In this document: in pieces, positions 2,699 to 56,567 of the stretch
Numbering within the stretch: the first letter of the stretch is position 1
How the letters are laid out: every line of letters begins with the position of its first letter
Origin: a virus
Taxonomy: Duplodnaviria; Caudoviricetes
Length of the DNA stretch: 64,000 nt
IMG/VR virus record: IMGVR_UViG_3300050034_000334
Strand: one strand, 5' to 3'
The notes under the pieces: generated by a model
The model's database searches: none
Told to the model about the DNA's origin: nothing
What the model saw: only the letters and a program-made list of their open reading frames with translations
Position numbers and translations under genes: made by a program

Positions 2699-3284
2699 TA
2701 AGTATAATCTTTCCACTTAGAGTCAGAGAGGAAAGGATGGGCCGGTCATATTCTGGTTGATCTCTCTCTTCTTTATAGATCACCGTCTTCACATTATTGA
2801 TAATAATGGACTTAAAGCAATCCAAACACGGAACGGCTGTATTAAAGAGTACCAACCCCTCCTGTCTAGGAAGTATGGAGTTGACAGGATGTTCCAGACT
2901 CAACTGGGTCAAAGCAGACACTTCAGCATGAACAGTGAGCCGGCAAGTGACCGCTGGGATGCAACCAATCTTCCGGCAGTCACCCTTCAGACCCTCCGGT
3001 TTCACGTTGGCTCCCCAGCTGAGAATTGCCAGGTTCCGGTCAGTCACAACACAACCCATCTTTCGACGTTCACATTCAGCCGTCTCGGCAACTTCATCGA
3101 TGCGATCGAAGATACCTGCGACTGACTGCTCGTCAAATTGTGGGATATTTGGGCTGATCTCATGAGGTTCAGCATCAATCCAGTCAAAGGACCGGGCATA
3201 GTAGGCTATGCGATGTCCTGGATCAAGTTCTAGCCTCACCTTGTACGAGTTGAACGGAACATACAATCTTTGAGTGAATTTCAT
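2685..3284 (-). CDS. deoxycytidylate (dCMP) deaminase
   Basis: VHAE and PCLDC zinc motifs, MGCVV..N.AILSWGAN segment. Confidence 0.85.
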   Translation of the reverse strand: MKFTQRLYVPFNSYKVRLELDPGHRIAYYARSFDWIDAEPHEISPNIPQFDEQSVAGIFDRIDEVAETAECERRKMGCVVTDRNLAILSWGANVKPEGLKGDCRKIGCIPAVTCRLTVHAEVSALTQLSLEHPVNSILPRQEGLVLFNTAVPCLDCFKSIIINNVKTVIYKEERDQPEYDRPILSSLTLSGKIILIKVS

Positions 3285-3565
3285 ACTCCCTCATACTCTC
3301 TTAGGAGAGCTTCTCCTTTGGAGATTTCCTCGGTGATTTCGACCAGCTTGGCAGCCAGCGACTGTTCGAGCTCAGTGGCCTTGGCCTGCATCTCGTCGGC
3401 ACTCATGTCTTCGGGATCGGCCACGCCGTATTCGCGCAACTTGTTCAGAGCTTCGGAGAGTTTCTGCTCTTCGATTCCGGCCTCGCGAATCAGTTGATCC
3501 TTCTTGCCAAGTAGGACCTTCTGTCGGTTTTGGACATCGCGCAGGAGAGTTTGGGTATCGGGCAT
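3281..3565 (-). CDS. hypothetical coiled-coil protein
   Basis: ATG at 3565 immediately after the upstream TAG; heptad-rich helical sequence. Confidence 0.7.
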   Translation of the reverse strand: MPDTQTLLRDVQNRQKVLLGKKDQLIREAGIEEQKLSEALNKLREYGVADPEDMSADEMQAKATELEQSLAAKLVEITEEISKGEALLREYEGV

Positions 3566-3566
3566 T

Positions 3567-4772
3567 CTAGACCTCGTGGATACAGAAACTGGCACCACAC
3601 TTGGGGCAGGTGACTGAATCCTTCAACCTGCGCTCTTCCTCAATGGTTTTCCTGAGTTCAGCTTCTTCCTCTTCGTTTTCTTCAAGGACATTGATTGCTG
3701 ACTGCAGGCGCTGCTGACAACTACCCACTGAGGACATAAGTGAAGCGGCTTGTCTTAGATACCCAACCAAGGCTCTGATGTCCTTGATTTCTTCCAACCC
3801 GTTATCAGTGTTGGAAATGACGCTATCTACAGCATCGGAGATATGCTCTCCAGAGGCTTTCTTGCTTCTAAGTAGGACTGCTGTACTGTCTAACTGGGCA
3901 ATCATGCGATACAAGGCGAGTAACTCGCTCCACATATCCCTGACTGTCGATAACCGGGTAATTGCCTGACCAAGCAGCGTGTCGCGCTTCTTGATGATAG
4001 CACTCTTTTCCAGCCAAGTTATCAAGGACTGTAAGTTGGCGACCTCGTCCAATGGCGGAGCAGTTATGTTGGAGATTAGTTGGCGAAGTGAATTGAACTT
4101 ATCCAAACTTACAGCGGATTCTTGATACAAGAAGTTCAAGGTCTCAAATCCCTTGGCTTCGCTCTCTAGCAGAACCAGACCTTCCATGATCGGAGTGACA
4201 TTGGTCTGAATCTCGGTCAGCTTGTGCTTACGAGTCTCCGCCTCATTGATCTCAGTAGCAATGGACTTCGCCTCTGAGCCTTTCTGTTGAATCCTGGTGT
4301 TAGTCTCGCGCTTCCCCATCTCGAGCTTCTCAGTCGACGAGAAGGCCCCAAGGATGGCGTTCATTTGAGTTGGCCCAACATCCTGAAGCATGAACTTCGA
4401 ATCGTGCTGATTCGAAAAGATGGGGTCGAGCTTTGTGTCACCGATTTCGATGATCCCCATGTTCAGAGCTTTGACTTCATCGGGGATCTCGAGTGCTCCA
4501 CGCTTGAGGAGCTTGCCATCGATGAGGTACTTGTTGCTGTCGCCGACGGATCGTTTGATAGTGATTTTGTGACCCCCAATTTCGAGGGTCACTTCGGTAT
4601 CTTCTTCTCCCACCCGGATCTGATCTGCTTCGATCTCATTCCGAATTAGACCTTGCAGAGCACGAACAGCAGCACTCTTGCCGGTGTCACTGTCGCCAAC
4701 CAGGACGGTCAGTTTTCCCAGGGCCAGTGAAAACTCTTCCCATGGTTGGAAGTTCTTGGCAGACAGTTTCAT
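3567..4772 (-). CDS. SbcC/Rad50-like ATPase, N-terminal half (Walker A, coiled coil, C-terminal CPKC Zn hook)
   Basis: MKLSAKNFQ start, VGDSDTGKS Walker A, long coiled coil, CPKCG at the end; no signature motif or Walker B. Confidence 0.8.
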   Translation of the reverse strand: MKLSAKNFQPWEEFSLALGKLTVLVGDSDTGKSAAVRALQGLIRNEIEADQIRVGEEDTEVTLEIGGHKITIKRSVGDSNKYLIDGKLLKRGALEIPDEVKALNMGIIEIGDTKLDPIFSNQHDSKFMLQDVGPTQMNAILGAFSSTEKLEMGKRETNTRIQQKGSEAKSIATEINEAETRKHKLTEIQTNVTPIMEGLVLLESEAKGFETLNFLYQESAVSLDKFNSLRQLISNITAPPLDEVANLQSLITWLEKSAIIKKRDTLLGQAITRLSTVRDMWSELLALYRMIAQLDSTAVLLRSKKASGEHISDAVDSVISNTDNGLEEIKDIRALVGYLRQAASLMSSVGSCQQRLQSAINVLEENEEEEAELRKTIEEERRLKDSVTCPKCGASFCIHEV

Positions 4773-19889: not shown

Positions 19890-19966
19890 TGGCGGGGCCG
19901 ACGAGACTTGAACTCGCGACTTCTTGCGTGACAGGCAAGCACTCTGACCAGCTGAGCTACGACCCC
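19890..19966 (-). tRNA. tRNA-Asp(GTC)
   Basis: GGGGTCG/CGGCCCC, G73, loop CT-GTC-AC, encoded CCA. Confidence 0.95.
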
Positions 19967-20760
19967 GCATTGTGCTTGTCATATATCTGAAACAGATCAG
20001 AGATAGCCAAGCCAGAAAACTTTTCAGCAAATGCAAATACTTCGGATAGATCACTTTCAAAAAGGAAAGTCACATTTGGATGAGCCTTTTGTTTTGCCTC
20101 AGTTTGAGCAGAAGGCCATCCCTTGATTTCTATGAGTTTCCCATCCACTTCAAAGTCAGGAAAGAATTTCTTAAAAGATCCTTGGAATTCGTACTTCAAC
20201 CCCAGCCTATTTCTCTGGATTGATTTCCCATTTTCTAGACACCAAATCAAGAAAGCACATTCCCAAGTTGATTGAACTAGAAATCCTCTGAATCTTCCTT
20301 GTTTTCCTCTTCCTCCCTTTTCTCGAAAACCACCTATCCTATTTGAGTTGTGAATACCCAACATCCGAATCATTCGTACACAATCATCCGAGCAAGTTAT
20401 CCTCCCCTTTAAGGAAGGTTTCCCACAATATTTGCAAGGAACAGGAACTCGATTTCTGTCCCTTTCCTGCCGCTCTTTGCTTCGTATCTCTAGGATTCTC
20501 TTGTGACTTTCAGGACTCCAAGGATTCCTTGAAGCAAAACTACGAGCACAGGATATCTTGCAAAACCGTTCTTTCTCTCCCTCCTTAATCTCTTTTTGGA
20601 AGGTAGTGTTACAATTCTCGCAAACAAACTGGCAAGTGATCCGATTATTACAACAAGGTTTCTTAATTCTAGGTCGCAGAGAACAGTTCCGGATATGCGC
20701 TCCCCAAACTTGACCCCTTTCGTTCCCCCTCATCAATCTGCACCACTGGCACTGACTCAT
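19957..20760 (-). CDS. putative homing endonuclease, PD-(D/E)xK type with N-terminal Cys-rich zinc fingers
   Basis: STWE...PDF...IEIKGW nuclease motif; several CxxC pairs; AT-rich; sits between tRNA-Gly and tRNA-Asp. Confidence 0.75.
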   Translation of the reverse strand: MSQCQWCRLMRGNERGQVWGAHIRNCSLRPRIKKPCCNNRITCQFVCENCNTTFQKEIKEGEKERFCKISCARSFASRNPWSPESHKRILEIRSKERQERDRNRVPVPCKYCGKPSLKGRITCSDDCVRMIRMLGIHNSNRIGGFREKGGRGKQGRFRGFLVQSTWECAFLIWCLENGKSIQRNRLGLKYEFQGSFKKFFPDFEVDGKLIEIKGWPSAQTEAKQKAHPNVTFLFESDLSEVFAFAEKFSGLAISDLFQIYDKHNAGS

Positions 20761-20972: not shown

Positions 20973-21083
20973 TGACGTGAATGAGTTTCGATTCATGTCT
21001 GGAATGCGCCCCCATAAACCCACCGCGATTGCCCCAATGGGCTTATGGTGGAGCAGATAACCCAAACACATCGACTCACGTCA
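20973..21083 (-). ncRNA. long imperfect hairpin between permuted tRNA-like RNA and tRNA-Gly
   Basis: TGACGTGA/TCACGTCA outer helix; inner 14-bp CCATAAGCCCATTG/CGGTGGGTTTATGG. Confidence 0.55.
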
Positions 21084-21088
21084 TAAAT

Positions 21089-21232
21089 CTCTGCACGAAC
21101 GAAAAGTGAACTTCGTTTTTTAAGGCGTCCTAACCCCTAGACGACAGCCCCATGATTTGGCGGGGCCACCAGGATTCGAACCTGGGTATCCTCCTTGACA
21201 GGGAGAACAAAATTCTGACGGCTCGTGCAAAA
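21089..21232 (-). ncRNA. circularly permuted tRNA-Asp(GTC)-like RNA (Y RNA YrlA-like, two-piece or permuted tRNA; class unresolved)
   Basis: Order on minus strand: anticodon arm (21206-21190), ATAC, T-arm, TGGCCCC-G-CCA (to 21158), linker AATCAT, GGGGCTG (from 21151), D-arm; leader and trailer pair in two further helices. Confidence 0.8.
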
Positions 21233-21236
21233 CCTT

Positions 21237-21314
21237 TGGTGCGCCGTCAGGGATTCGAACCCCGGACCTACTGCTTGTAAGGCAGCCGCTCTAACCGGAC
21301 TGAGCTAACAGCGC
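21237..21314 (-). tRNA. tRNA-Val(TAC)
   Basis: GCGCTGT/ACGGCGC, loop CT-TAC-AA, encoded CCA. Confidence 0.95.
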
Positions 21315-21358: not shown

Positions 21359-21870
21359 TTGGTTGAATCTCGCTGAAGTTTAGCTGATTCGCACCAAGGA
21401 CAGATGCCCGGTATCCACGCCCTCCGCTGCTTCAGCGGCGACGACCGTTGCAACTGCTCCGACGAATTCAACCATGCTCTTCATGACAATCTCCATAATA
21501 CTACGGATTTGCTCTCCGTAAACTACTATTTTTGCCACCAGGCAAAAGATTTCGCGTGTAGGAGGATGATAGCCCAGACACTGGTGACCAGATGTGACTA
21601 TCACCACTACACGCATCTCAAACTTTGCGACGGAGTTTAGCACCCTCTAAAGTGTCGCTCACTCCATCGTTCAGGAAGGTTTCGCACTTTCGCGTACACC
21701 TACAACCCTGTCATCTAGGACATCGCTGTTATGCTAGTTCATCGAAGCTCAATTTGTCGGCGACCCGCTCTGGTCGTCCTGCGCTTCTGTTCGATCTTCC
21801 GACATGTTTCCATGCCTACCGTCTTCGAATTTCAGACCGCTCTGGTCGTCCTGCGCTATCGCCTGATTAC
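21359..21870 (-). ncRNA. candidate large structured non-coding RNA
   Basis: About 510 nt with no convincing long ORF; many helices, H-type pseudoknot pattern, 21-nt direct repeat, ends at a terminator. Confidence 0.45.
21765..21857. repeat. 21-bp direct repeat, 2 copies, 51 bp apart
   Basis: ccgctctggtcgtcctgcgct at 21765-21785 and 21837-21857. Confidence 0.95.
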
Positions 21871-55640: not shown

Positions 55641-56567
55641 ATGAACGTCTTCACCGTTTATAAAACCGTCAATCTGATCAATCATCGCTATTATCAAGGA
55701 GTCCACGAAACTTCTAATCCCAACGACAGCTATCTAGGTTCCGGCATCGTTCTCACAAGAGCCGTAGCCAAGTATGGTGCCAGCAACTTCTCCAAAGAAA
55801 TCTTATTCGTATACAACACAGCAGAAGAAGCCTTCTCCAAAGAGGTCGAACTTTGCGCTATTTCCAAAAATGATCCTCTTTGCTACAATCTACATCCCGG
55901 TGGCAAAGGAGGTTTCAAGTTCATACTAGATCATCACCTGATGACTCCAGTACCCAAAGAATTCCTCACAGGTCGCAAGCCCGGTTCCAAGAATCTCATT
56001 GTCCCTGTCACAATATTTCCTGAACCAGTTTGTAAGTACGGATGTGGACTAGGAGCCAGGTTTCTTCTTGGAGAGAAAGGCACTCCTTGCTGCTCTGATC
56101 ATTCTGGTAAGTGTGCCGGATATAAAGCCTCAAAGAAGTCCACCAAAGTGAAACGAATCTATAAACAAGAGTTGATCTGTTTCTACGGATGTGATAGGTC
56201 TGCCAGCTATCTTCTAGGAGTTAGTGAGAAACCTTGTTGTTCCAAATCCTTTTACGATTGTCCTGGTCACTGGAATAATAGACCGAGCATATCTCTTCCG
56301 GAAATGAGAGCAAAATCAGAGATTACTATGTTGAAGAGGTACGGAGTAGTTAATCCGTCATCGGATCCTGAACTTCTCGCTAAAAGAACAGCAACTAATG
56401 TTAGACTCTATGGAGGAGCCAGCCCCACCTGTGATTCCACCGTTAATCAAAAGCGCATTCGTACCAACAAGAAACGCTTTGGTGGCAACGCTCCAGCCTG
56501 TTCTAAGGAAATCAGGGACAAGATGAATGCTACTCGGAGGAAATCCAAACTTCTCCCCTCTTCTTAG
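55641..56567 (+). CDS. GIY-YIG homing endonuclease with two Cys-rich zinc modules
   Basis: VYKTVN....YYQGVH..Y.GSG, YNL..GG; C..GC...CCS...C.G twice; KRYGV.NP tail. Confidence 0.88.
   Translation: MNVFTVYKTVNLINHRYYQGVHETSNPNDSYLGSGIVLTRAVAKYGASNFSKEILFVYNTAEEAFSKEVELCAISKNDPLCYNLHPGGKGGFKFILDHHLMTPVPKEFLTGRKPGSKNLIVPVTIFPEPVCKYGCGLGARFLLGEKGTPCCSDHSGKCAGYKASKKSTKVKRIYKQELICFYGCDRSASYLLGVSEKPCCSKSFYDCPGHWNNRPSISLPEMRAKSEITMLKRYGVVNPSSDPELLAKRTATNVRLYGGASPTCDSTVNQKRIRTNKKRFGGNAPACSKEIRDKMNATRRKSKLLPSS

What the first reader, a model, noticed from the sequence alone, without database searches (positions are those of the whole stretch)
21089..21232. Circularly permuted tRNA-Asp-like RNA embedded in the phage tRNA array
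Seen: on the minus strand, right after the CCA of tRNA-Val, a tRNA is encoded back half first: anticodon arm TCTCC-CT-GTC-AA-GGAGG, variable ATAC, T-arm CCAGG-TTCGAAT-CCTGG, acceptor 3' strand TGGCCCC-G-CCA, a 6-nt linker AATCAT, then acceptor 5' strand GGGGCTG and a D-arm GTCT-AGGGGTT-AGGAC. The flanks pair: GAATTTTGTT with AACGAAGTTC and TTTTGCACGAG with TTCGTGCAGAG. G73 and GUC are Asp identity elements, though position 38 is A rather than the C in the normal Asp copy. Known: bacterial Y RNAs (YrlA) and two-piece tmRNAs use a loop-closed permuted tRNA-like domain; permuted tRNAs are known from algae and archaea and need splicing endonucleases. Inference: this fits none cleanly. It keeps a full anticodon arm (unlike YrlA and tmRNA) and lacks G3:U70/A73. 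It may be an RNase P-matured two-piece tRNA, a tRNA-mimic decoy against anticodon nucleases or tRNA sensors, or a new Y RNA class.
Basis: partly seen in the sequence, partly recalled or inferred. Interest (0 to 1): 0.92.

Follow-up and report, generated by a model that had tools for sequence, protein, structure and literature searches.

The report
Phage Y RNA mimicking tRNA-Asp
The "back-to-front tRNA" is real, but it is a phage-encoded Y RNA (YrlA type), the small RNA partner of the Ro60 protein. Its tRNA-like head is unusually complete, so it is an interesting variant of a known RNA class and not a new kind of RNA.

Summary
The element is not a rearranged pseudogene, a tmRNA or a stand-alone permuted tRNA gene.

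I built a covariance model only from RNAs lying directly upstream of phage Ro60 (TROVE) genes in IMG/VR. It contains no sequence from this genome. It finds the element over its full length (66 bits, E 2e-11). The best full-length hit in 769 kb of control DNA scores 20 bits.

They carry the family's GNCG, YUAY-like and UUUG motifs. The "anticodon arm" occupies the position of the variable YrlA "V" stem-loop.

- A Leu-type paralog sits in the same genome's Leu array.
- A YrlB-like partner lies immediately 3' (20973-21083).
- A Ro60 gene lies on a metagenome contig that matches the unheld part of this genome.

Unusual features are a 7-bp acceptor stem closed by G73-CCA plus 6 nt, and a head that rejoins in silico to a perfect tRNA-Asp(GUC). 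M. smegmatis YrlA gives a precedent for RNase P cleavage into two CCA-ended halves.

Rfam's YrlA model misses the element. Verdict: new variant of a known kind. Other permuted modules of this genome were noted earlier in this scan.

The parts
21221..21232 (-). Lower (terminal) stem, 5' strand (UUUUGCACGAGC). Pairs with 21089-21100.
   Evidence: Aligned to the lower-stem positions of model R1. In the family this helix has compensatory changes at 9 of 9 pairs. The Y/R pair covaries between the two copies in this genome.
21215..21222 (-). GCCGUCAG: a relaxed form of the Ro60-contact motif GNCGAAN0-1G, at the top of the lower stem.
   Evidence: In the 30-member alignment these columns read G 23/30, C 24/30, C 28/30, G 30/30. 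The motif definition is from PMC4201824. The AA of the published motif is UC here.
21206..21215 (-). Middle stem, 5' strand (GAAUUUUGUU). Pairs with 21108-21117. By homology this is the anticodon-stem equivalent of YrlA.
   Evidence: Family helix 2 is 82-86% paired, with 5-7 of 8 pairs doubly changed.
21203..21207 (-). UUCUC, in place of the family's near-invariant UUAUC (the YUAY that begins the V region).
   Evidence: U 29, U 28, A 27, U 26, C 29 of 30. This element has C where 27 members have A. YUAY is described in PMC4201824.
21190..21206 (-). Hairpin UCUCC-CUGUCAA-GGAGG. It has anticodon-arm geometry (5 bp, 7-nt loop, GUC) and sits at the position of the YrlA 'V' stem-loop.
   Evidence: The position is variable in the family: 8 of 30 members have no hairpin. 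Several members have 7-nt [C/A]U-NNN-AA loops with differing triplets.
21169..21189 (-). Variable loop AUAC plus T-arm CCAGG-UUCGAAU-CCUGG.
   Evidence: The family T-stem is 99-100% paired, with 4 of 5 pairs doubly changed.
21145..21168 (-). Loop-closed 7-bp acceptor stem: UGGCCCC, G73, CCA, linker AAUCAU, GGGGCUG. The predicted RNase P site lies between U21152 and G21151. A76 is at 21158.
   Evidence: The family acceptor helix has all 5 modelled pairs doubly changed. The strain variant C69>U (21165) keeps the pair with G4 as G.U. Cleavage is inferred from M. smegmatis YrlA.
21118..21144 (-). U8-C9, D-arm GUCU-AGGGGUUA-GGAC, G26, then the single-stranded CCUUAAAA junction.
   Evidence: The D-arm and RCYUAAA(A) junction are shared with L003/L130, L104, L106a and L126. 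The D region is of tRNA-Glu type.
21089..21117 (-). 3' strands of the middle stem (AACGAAGUUC) and the lower stem (GUUCGUGCAGAG), separated by ACUUUUC (family motif UUUG; UUCG here).
   Evidence: U 21, U 26, U 24, G 24 of 30.
20973..21083 (-). Neighbouring second Y-like RNA, YrlB-like. It has the same lower stem / GUCGAUG / middle stem / GGGUUAUC module, but a long hairpin replaces the tRNA-like head.
   Evidence: R1 scores it at 25.2 bits over the full model, with the core deleted. Fold z = -5.6.
21237..21314 (-). tRNA-Val(UAC), 4 nt upstream. The same order, tRNA-Val(UAC) followed by family RNAs, occurs in the complete jumbo phage G021.

Best explanation
The element is a phage-encoded Y RNA of the YrlA type.

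Its 5' and 3' ends pair into a lower stem that carries a GNCG / UUUG internal-loop motif. By homology this is the docking site for Ro60 (Rsr). A middle stem leads to a tRNA-like head built in the order V hairpin, T-arm, loop-closed acceptor stem, D-arm.

Shown here:
- family membership;
- covariation-supported structure;
- linkage of the family to phage Ro60 genes;
- presence of the stretch in RNA libraries.

Inferred:
- The RNA is transcribed with the tRNA array. It is bound by the phage's Ro60, which is very probably encoded about 130 kb away in the part of the genome that is not held.
- As in other Ro60/Y RNA systems, it tethers Ro60 to a tRNA-binding or RNA-degrading partner such as host PNPase.
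- This copy has a 7-bp acceptor stem followed by G73-CCA, a 6-nt linker and U(-1). RNase P therefore probably cuts between U21152 and G21151, and 3' trimming then leaves a two-piece RNA with a free CCA end. M. smegmatis YrlA is processed this way.
- The head copies tRNA-Asp features: GUC, G73, G2:C71, G10, and the top four acceptor pairs of the phage's own tRNA-Asp.
For: 1. Model R1 was built from 14 RNAs adjacent to phage Ro60 genes, none from this genome. It hits window 21091-21230(-) over its full length at 66.1 bits, E 2.3e-11. Non-seed members score 57-75 bits. The control gives at most 20.1 bits full-length in 769 kb.
2. The family structure is 93% paired against about 41% in slid controls. 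26 of 31 pairs (14 sequences) and 28 of 31 pairs (30 sequences) have double changes, with 0 of 500 shuffles as high.
3. All 42 hits in 25 Ro60 loci lie on the Ro60 strand, mostly within a few kb upstream.
4. The closest homolog of the head (L003/L130) lies about 1.2 kb upstream of Ro60. The closest homolog of the scaffold (L065/L106) lies about 1.1 kb upstream.
5. The same genome holds a Leu-type paralog with the same scaffold and an adjacent YrlB-like RNA.
6. It encodes Ro60 (TROVE 113 bits, vWA_Ro60 179 bits) flanked by family RNAs with the same ACGAGCCG...CGUUCGU core. 9 of the 13 non-RNA runs that hold at least 84% of the window stretch's words also hold 38-55% of L132's words.
7. In the complete 405 kb phage G021, family RNAs sit in a tRNA region about 167 kb from Ro60, directly after tRNA-Val(UAC).
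8. RNA-library contigs from 4 studies span the element.
9. Precedents: RNase P cleavage and CCA on M. smegmatis YrlA (PMC4201824); phage Ro60 binding phage Y-like RNAs and host PNPase (PMC12135203).
Against: - No Ro60 gene is present in the 187 kb record that holds the element. The link to L132 rests on an unchecked first-stage note plus co-occurrence.
- Rfam's YrlA model gives no hit at E <= 10.
- The published motif GNCGAAN0-1G is matched only in its GNCG core. YUAY reads UUCU.
- No binding, cleavage or RNA-end data exist. The RNA evidence is contigs only, so neither strand nor ends can be seen, and DNA carry-over is not excluded.
- Whether the hairpin or the middle stem stacks under the D stem is unresolved.
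Confidence: 0.75

Rival explanations
1. Chargeable two-piece tRNA-Asp mimic. After RNase P cleavage and trimming, the two halves stay joined by the acceptor, middle and lower stems. AspRS aminoacylates the RNA. The charged RNA protects itself, sequesters or reports on AspRS or EF-Tu, or even decodes. This is compatible with the element also being a Y RNA.
For: - Rejoined at 26/27, the halves form a perfect 75-nt tRNA-Asp(GUC) for ARAGORN.
- G73, G2:C71, G10 and G34-U35-C36 are present. These are bacterial AspRS identity elements by my own knowledge of the literature, not tested here.
- Acceptor plus N73 is 12/15 identical to the phage's tRNA-Asp, the best of 31 tRNAs.
- CCA is encoded, and the acceptor stem is 7 bp.
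- Chen et al. raise possible aminoacylation of cleaved M. smegmatis YrlA.
Against: - A normal tRNA-Asp(GUC) lies 1.2 kb away in the same array.
- Position 38 is A, not C. The D-arm is of Glu type.
- The same operation on the nearest relatives gives implausible tRNAs: a class-I 'Ser(GCU)' with stem mismatches and 'His(AUG)'.
- The triplet drifts across the family, and 8 of 30 members have no hairpin.
- A 21-bp side helix at 26/27 would be hard to fit on a ribosome (inference).
Confidence: 0.12
2. True circularly permuted tRNA-Asp gene. The stems are excised, positions 26 and 27 are ligated into a circle, and RNase P plus 3' trimming then release a canonical tRNA, as for the permuted tRNAs of red algae and Thermofilum.
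For: - The order is permuted and the rejoined sequence is a valid tRNA.
- The YrlA structure paper raises this possibility for some YrlA RNAs.
Against: - No bulge-helix-bulge is seen at the junction. It is a 10-bp helix with a 9-nt single strand on one side only.
- RtcB is absent from this record and from 19 of 20 Ro60-phage records.
- The break is at 26/27, not in a loop.
- The stems carry conserved Ro60-type motifs shared with members that have no anticodon-like hairpin.
- A normal tRNA-Asp is present.
Confidence: 0.04
3. tRNA-mimic decoy. The anticodon-like hairpin and tRNA head soak up a host anticodon nuclease or tRNA-sensing defence, with or without Ro60.
For: - Many family members carry 7-nt [C/A]U-NNN-AA loops with different triplets.
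- The elements sit in tRNA arrays of tRNA-rich jumbo phages.
- The paralogs resemble tRNAs of their own arrays, Asp/Glu here and Leu in the Leu array.
Against: There is no direct evidence. The hairpin is dispensable in 8 of 30 members. No defence or counter-defence gene linkage was examined.
Confidence: 0.07
4. Rearranged tRNA pseudogene, or a two-piece tmRNA.
For: Rfam's tRNA model gives a sub-threshold 23.5-bit match when it reads the 5' flank as a poor acceptor strand. tmRNA_permuted scores 12 bits.
Against: - Full-length family membership, conserved flanks and compensatory changes argue against a pseudogene.
- There is no G3:U70, no A73 and no tag reading frame. ARAGORN with tmRNA search on finds none here.
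- A separate permuted tmRNA is noted elsewhere in this genome (untested).
Confidence: 0.02

Closest known systems
YrlA (Y RNA-like A; Rfam RF02553; S. Typhimurium, M. smegmatis, mycobacteriophages)
   Same: - The ends pair into a stem that bears a GNCG-type Ro60 motif.
- The tRNA-like head has the T-arm 5' of the D-arm and a loop-closed acceptor stem.
- An optional V stem-loop precedes the T-arm, introduced by YUAY.
- It occurs in tandem with a YrlB-like RNA.
- It is a phage-encoded example.
- M. smegmatis YrlA has a 7-bp acceptor stem, is cut by RNase P and carries CCA.
   Different: - The Rfam model does not detect it.
- The motif is GCCGUCAG, not GNCGAA(N)G.
- CCA is fully encoded after a proper N73, whereas in M. 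smegmatis CA is added.
- The V hairpin has exact anticodon-arm geometry, so the head rejoins to a perfect tRNA-Asp.
- An RCYUAAA(A) single strand follows the D-arm.
- This copy lies in a tRNA array, not within 4 kb of Ro60.
Thermus phage phiLo Yrl1/Yrl2 with phage Ro60 (PMC12135203)
   Same: Phage-encoded Y-like RNAs with a CGAA-type motif in an internal loop between stems. They are encoded upstream of a phage Ro60. They have been shown to bind it and to form a complex with host PNPase.
   Different: The passages I read describe no tRNA-like, CCA-bearing head for them. The phage lineage and habitat are different.
Circularly permuted tRNA genes (Cyanidioschyzon merolae, Thermofilum pendens)
   Same: The 3' half is encoded before the 5' half. 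The acceptor stem is closed by a short linker after CCA. The flanks pair.
   Different: Those use a bulge-helix-bulge, a splicing endonuclease and a ligase to make a circle. Here there is no such motif and no RtcB, and the flanks are a conserved Ro60-type scaffold.
Two-piece (permuted) tmRNA
   Same: Permuted tRNA-like domain with an internal CCA and RNase P processing into two paired pieces.
   Different: There is no G3:U70 or A73, no tag reading frame and no pseudoknots. tmRNA_permuted scores only 12 bits.

Membership tests
YrlA / bacterial and phage Y RNA (PMC4201824; Rfam RF02553) | GNCGAAN0-1G motif near the 5' end (proposed Ro60 contact) | tested here: inconclusive
   The element has GCCGUCAG: the GNCG core and closing G are present, but AA is replaced by UC. 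In 30 family members, 14 of them seed RNAs directly adjacent to Ro60, only G-C-C-G is conserved (23, 24, 28 and 30 of 30) and the next two bases vary.
YrlA / bacterial and phage Y RNA (PMC4201824; Rfam RF02553) | 5' and 3' ends pair into a long stem below a large internal loop | tested here: met
   Lower stem 9-12 bp, middle stem 10 bp. Covariation at 9 of 9 and 5-7 of 8 pairs in the family.
YrlA / bacterial and phage Y RNA (PMC4201824; Rfam RF02553) | tRNA-like module: T-arm, loop-closed acceptor-like stem, D-arm, in that order, with tRNA core nucleotides | tested here: met
   U8, A14, G15/C48, GG in the D-loop and UUCGAAU in the T-loop are read directly from the sequence.
YrlA / bacterial and phage Y RNA (PMC4201824; Rfam RF02553) | Encoded within about 4 kb of a Ro60 ortholog, on the same strand | tested here: not met
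   There is no TROVE gene in the 187 kb record. Homologs L003/L130 and L065/L106 do meet the criterion. Ro60 is present on L132, which probably comes from the unheld part of this genome. G021 shows family RNAs 167 kb from its Ro60.
YrlA / bacterial and phage Y RNA (PMC4201824; Rfam RF02553) | Reaches the Rfam RF02553 gathering score (69 bits) | tested here: not met
   No YrlA hit at E <= 10 on the element. The Leu paralog scores 22.6 bits (partial). Relatives score 34-41 bits.
YrlA / bacterial and phage Y RNA (PMC4201824; Rfam RF02553) | Bound by Ro60/Rsr | not testable with these tools
   Needs EMSA or co-immunoprecipitation.
Phage Ro60-adjacent Y-RNA family defined here (model R1) | Full-length match to a covariance model trained only on Ro60-adjacent RNAs | tested here: met
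   66.1 bits, model positions 1-133 of 133, E 2.3e-11. The control maximum is 20.1 bits full-length and 33.7 bits partial.
RNase P-cleaved, CCA-ended YrlA (M. smegmatis type) | Seven-base-pair acceptor stem; cleavage at the tRNA 5' end; CCA at the new 3' end | tested here: inconclusive
   The 7-bp stem, G73-CCA and U(-1) are present in the sequence. Cleavage itself cannot be tested here, because contigs show no RNA ends.
Circularly permuted tRNA gene | Bulge-helix-bulge at the paired flanks, with a splicing endonuclease and ligase available | tested here: not met
   No bulge-helix-bulge at the junction. RtcB is absent from this record and from 19 of 20 related records. An endonuclease was not searched for.
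Circularly permuted tRNA gene | The rejoined halves make a canonical tRNA | tested here: met
   ARAGORN calls tRNA-Asp(GUC), 75 nt. The relatives rejoin to implausible tRNAs.
Two-piece tmRNA | G3:U70 and A73 alanine identity, tag reading frame, match to tmRNA models | tested here: not met
   The element has G3:C70 and G73. ARAGORN finds no tmRNA here. tmRNA_permuted scores 12.1 bits against a gathering score of 47.

The most novel reading that the evidence does not exclude
After RNase P cleavage, this Y RNA becomes a two-piece, CCA-ended tRNA-Asp mimic that AspRS actually aminoacylates, or that is otherwise handled as tRNA-Asp by host or defence enzymes. That would link Ro60 RNPs directly to the aminoacylation and tRNA-surveillance machinery.

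In this reading the phage places identity-matched Y RNAs in its tRNA arrays: Asp/Glu-like here, Leu-like in the Leu array. The element would also be a living intermediate for the proposed origin of YrlA from tandem tRNA genes. It keeps the first tRNA's anticodon arm and N73-CCA, the spacer, and the second tRNA's acceptor strand and D-arm.
Probability: 0.15. Interest if true: 0.85.

Novelty: new variant of a known kind. Interest (0 to 1): 0.52.

Why it matters
Y RNAs and Ro60 are conserved from bacteria to humans. What the tRNA-like head of bacterial Y RNAs binds is still unknown, and their proposed origin from dimeric or permuted tRNAs is untested.

- **A complete tRNA mimic.** This element is, as far as I found, the most complete tRNA mimic in a YrlA-type RNA. 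It has an encoded N73-CCA, a 7-bp acceptor stem and an anticodon-arm-shaped V hairpin, and it rejoins in silico to a perfect tRNA-Asp. That gives a concrete substrate for testing RNase P cleavage, CCA-end formation and aminoacylation of a Y RNA.
- **A family Rfam misses.** The work defines a covariation-supported family of phage Ro60-linked Y RNAs that the Rfam YrlA model does not detect. Members often occur in arrays of up to about 10 copies.
- **Location.** In jumbo phages such RNAs can sit inside tRNA arrays far from the Ro60 gene.
- **Annotation.** These elements should not be called pseudo-tRNAs or missed altogether.

Tried and rejected
- **Rfam.** At gathering thresholds on the whole window and at E <= 10 on the region, only a sub-threshold tRNA match (23.5 bits) and noise. 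No YrlA, Y_RNA or tmRNA.
- **Phage database blastn.** Only the tRNA-Val part of the query matched.
- **Exact 15-mer of the 5' flank in IMG/VR.** 90 loci came back, about the number chance would give. Only L064/L075 and L065 were real.
- **Junction pattern GGTTAGGACGCCTWAAA.** It returned L003, L104 (real) and L105 (unrelated).
- **My first guess for the Ro60 motif.** I first took the conserved GYACGAG helix to be the Ro60 motif. The family alignment shows the conserved element is the GNCG just after it.
- **Ro60 in the held record.** TROVE search and tblastn with two phage Ro60 proteins found nothing.
- **Third NCCA module in IMG/VR.** 0 hits. It was found in metagenome contigs instead.
- **RtcB as a ligase for a splice-and-circularise route.** Absent from this record and from 19 of the 20 Ro60-phage records searched; the one hit is in a provirus record.
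- **DUF7873 as a conserved Ro60 neighbour.** Found only in L132 and G001.
- **MFE folding of the isolated V segment.** Ambiguous. For this element it prefers a different small hairpin, so I did not use it to argue for or against the anticodon-arm shape.
- **Pseudogene and tmRNA readings.** Rejected; see the rival explanations.
- **RNA ends.** Only contigs were available, so cleavage could not be assessed.
Full report
**1. Observation**

- a 5-bp hairpin with the 7-nt loop CUGUCAA;
- AUAC, then a canonical T-arm;
- UGGCCCC-G-CCA, then the linker AAUCAU;
- GGGGCUG (7/7 pairs with the 3' strand, two of them G.U), then UC;
- a D-arm, G26, and two enclosing helices.

RNAfold reproduces the architecture (-52.2 kcal/mol, z = -2.5).

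ARAGORN and Rfam do not call it. Rfam gives only a 23.5-bit tRNA match that misreads the 5' flank, and a 12-bit permuted-tmRNA match.

I scanned both strands of the 187 kb IMG/VR record that holds the window for "T-arm, 7-nt strand, N, linker, perfect complement, D-arm". The scan finds this element and one other, apart from ordinary tRNA-tRNA neighbours.

**2. A shared scaffold**

The second element lies in the Leu array (record 55979-56134, outside the window). It is Leu-like: class II variable arm, Leu-type D-loop, A73-CCA plus a 3-nt linker. It has no anticodon loop.

Both elements are embedded in nearly the same flanks: GUUUUGYACGAGCCGU ... UUCGUUCGURCA. The Y/R difference between the two copies preserves a base pair. 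A random rearrangement would not give this.

The flank 15-mer recovers L064/L075 and L065 from IMG/VR among chance hits. A pattern for the permuted core recovers L003. L003's D-arm and GCCUAAAA junction match this element. Its acceptor and T stems differ by compensatory changes.

**3. Link to Ro60**

Two of the four related records, the two most complete, encode TROVE-domain proteins of about 550 aa. The L003 homolog lies about 1.2 kb upstream of that gene. The L065 scaffold element lies about 1.1 kb upstream. Both are on the gene's strand. L065 also has a sub-threshold full-length YrlA hit with a true GUCGAAAG motif 0.35 kb upstream.

Using the two Ro60 proteins, I fetched 25 phage Ro60 loci. 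Most carry one or more permuted tRNA-like RNAs just upstream.

I aligned fourteen of these, none from this genome. They share:
- a lower stem;
- an invariant CG within G-N-C-G;
- a middle stem, then UUAUC;
- a variable segment;
- a T-arm, a closed acceptor stem and a D-arm;
- RCYUAAA(A), then UUUG and the lower-stem 3' strand.

The five-helix structure is 93.1% paired, against about 41% when partners are slid. 26 of 31 pairs show double changes, and 0 of 500 shuffles score as high.

**4. Membership test**

The covariance model R1, built from those fourteen, finds this element as its best hit outside the training set: window 21091-21230(-), 66.1 bits, E 2.3e-11, model positions 1-133. It also finds:
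- L003 (62 bits);
- L064 (49 bits);
- the Leu paralog (48 bits);
- weakly, the hairpin RNA immediately 3' (20973-21083, 25 bits).

That neighbour aligns to the lower stem, GUCGAUG, the middle stem and GGGUUAUC, with the tRNA-like core deleted (z = -5.6). It is a YrlB-like partner.

In the 25 Ro60 loci, all 42 hits at E <= 0.001 lie on the Ro60 strand. Non-seed members score 57-75 bits.

In 769 kb of unrelated viral loci, tRNA arrays included, the best full-length hit is 20.1 bits. The best hit of any kind is a partial 33.7-bit tandem-tRNA junction.

The 30-member alignment including this element is 93.6% paired, with 28 of 31 pairs doubly changed. That alignment is fitted to the model, but the MAFFT alignment gave the same picture.

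**5. Is there a Ro60 in this phage?**

There is none in the 187 kb held. CheckV rates that record about 60% complete. First-stage notes describe features of "the same genome" at positions beyond its end.

One note describes a 261-aa ORF followed by structured RNA and an AGGAGGC-C-CCA ... GCCUCCU module. That module is not in the record and not in IMG/VR. It is on metagenome contigs L131-L133.

It encodes:
- a 586-aa Ro60 (TROVE 113 bits, vWA_Ro60 179 bits; 50% identical to the G003 phage Ro60);
- family RNAs upstream (61 and 33 bits) and downstream (42 bits) of that gene.

The small upstream RNA has ACGA-GCCGAAG ... CGUUCGU. That is the canonical motif set in the same lower-stem core as this element.

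Nine of the 13 non-RNA runs that hold at least 84% of the window stretch's words also hold 38-55% of L132's words. This fits a strain about 2% diverged. I therefore consider it likely, but not proven, that this phage encodes Ro60 about 130 kb from the element.

Such distance is not odd. In the complete 405 kb phage G021, the strongest family RNAs (up to 103 bits) lie about 167 kb from its Ro60. They sit in a tRNA region, directly after tRNA-Val(UAC), which is the same order as in this window.

**6. What is unusual here**

*Acceptor closure.* Most members close the acceptor stem, often exactly 7 bp, with a tetraloop. This element, its paralog, L003/L130 and L106a instead have N73-CCA plus a 3-13 nt linker. 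That is about 4 of the 35 elements tabulated, against a chance expectation of 1 in 64.

*The hairpin before the T-arm.* It is the family's variable region. Eight of 30 members have none, and the others vary in stem and loop. This matches the published "V" stem-loop introduced by YUAY.

Several members have 7-nt [C/A]U-NNN-AA loops, with triplets GCU, UCU, GUU, UAU, AUU and others. The loop is therefore anticodon-like in shape, but its triplet is not conserved.

*In-silico rejoining.* In this element the geometry is exact. Rejoining the halves at 26/27 gives a perfect tRNA-Asp(GUC) for ARAGORN. The same operation on relatives gives a class-I "Ser(GCU)" with mismatches and a "His(AUG)".

*Resemblance to local tRNAs.* Acceptor plus N73 is 12/15 identical to the phage's own tRNA-Asp, the best of 31 tRNAs. 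The D region is Glu-type and is shared with relatives in other phages. The T and hairpin stems differ from those of the phage's tRNA-Asp. The element is therefore not a recent copy of that gene.

**7. Expression**

The phage recurs in peat metagenomes. Six metatranscriptome runs hold 68-79% of the words of the stretch.

RNA-library contigs from four studies span the element contiguously with tRNA-Val, two of them with no differences. A strain variant, C69>U, keeps the pair with G4.

Contigs cannot show strand or ends, and DNA carry-over was not controlled.

**8. Mechanism and comparison with known systems**

Established knowledge:
- Y RNAs dock Ro60 through a conserved stem motif and tether it to partners such as PNPase.
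- YrlA heads fold as tRNA (PDB 6cu1).
- M. smegmatis YrlA, the one with a 7-bp acceptor stem, is cut by RNase P in vivo and ends in CCA.
- YrlA is proposed to derive from dimeric tRNA transcripts.
- A phage Ro60 binds phage Y-like RNAs and host PNPase.

(Sources: PMC4201824, bioRxiv 10.1101/312249, PMC12135203.)

By homology this element works the same way. Its encoded G73-CCA, U(-1) and 7-bp stem make RNase P cleavage into a two-piece, CCA-ended RNA the most likely processing. This step is inferred, not shown.

A splice-and-circularise route to a real tRNA lacks both a bulge-helix-bulge and a ligase. Decoding is unlikely given the nearby normal tRNA-Asp.

**9. Verdict**

This is a real, conserved, probably expressed phage Y RNA of the YrlA type, which Rfam misses. 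It is a new variant of a known kind.

The residual novelty lies in three things:
- the near-perfect tRNA-Asp mimicry with an encoded CCA;
- the placement of identity-matched paralogs inside tRNA arrays;
- what it says about the tandem-tRNA origin of Y RNAs.

Noticed in passing
window 20973-21083 (minus strand): A second Y-like RNA lies directly 3' of the element. It has the lower stem GACGUGA/UCACGUC, GUCGAUG, a middle stem and GGGUUAUC, but a long hairpin in place of the tRNA-like head (R1 25 bits, fold z = -5.6). It is a YrlB-like partner, not a tmRNA coding piece.
   Followed up: yes
G000:C1:55979-56134 (+), = L009:680-835; outside the window: A Leu-type paralog sits inside the Leu tRNA array. 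It has the same scaffold, a class II variable arm, a Leu-like D-loop and A73-CCA plus a UGA linker, and no anticodon loop. R1 scores it at 48 bits; Rfam YrlA gives a partial 22.6 bits.
   Followed up: yes
window about 21380-21484 (minus strand), upstream of tRNA-Val: A small ORF, MKSMVEFVGAVATVVAAEAAEGVDTGHLSLVRIS, is rich in Val/Ala/Glu/Gly/Asp, which are the amino acids of the tRNAs downstream. It is followed by a GC hairpin and a U-run terminator just before tRNA-Val. It looks like a leader-peptide attenuator. Earlier notes describe the same design at other arrays of this genome.
   Followed up: partly
window 19957-20760 (minus strand): A 267-aa Cys-rich ORF interrupts the array between tRNA-Gly(UCC) and tRNA-Asp, and its end overlaps the tRNA-Asp start. 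It has no Pfam match. It may be a mobile or homing-type gene.
   Followed up: partly
L132:1233-2993 (Ro60), 3236-4021 (DUF7873), 387-535, 722-793 and 4198-4314 (family RNAs): This metagenome contig matches the unheld part of this genome as earlier notes describe it. It carries Ro60 flanked by three family RNAs and a DUF7873 gene. Among the Ro60 phage records, DUF7873 recurs only in G001, the record with the closest homolog of the element.
   Followed up: partly
L128:2700-5800; L108:1200-2250: Some phages carry arrays of up to about 10 tandem family RNAs upstream of Ro60. Within an array the lower stems are near-identical and the heads differ.
   Followed up: partly
L106:4823-4954 (= L065:7364-7491): A scaffold almost identical to this element's carries a differently arranged insert: a short CCUCC-GCCA-AACU-GGGGG hairpin, then a tRNA-like sequence in normal order (Rfam tRNA 33.7 bits) with a 4-nt anticodon loop. 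This suggests that scaffold and tRNA-derived inserts recombine as modules.
   Followed up: partly
L134:11214-12204 (G021:C1 about 129.2-130.2 kb): In a complete 405 kb jumbo phage, tRNA-Val(UAC) is followed by four tandem family RNAs, about 167 kb from that phage's Ro60 gene. The order is the same as in this window.
   Followed up: yes
L064:5167-5583 (minus strand): Rfam finds a permuted (alpha-type) tmRNA above threshold in a related phage contig that also carries a family RNA.
   Followed up: no
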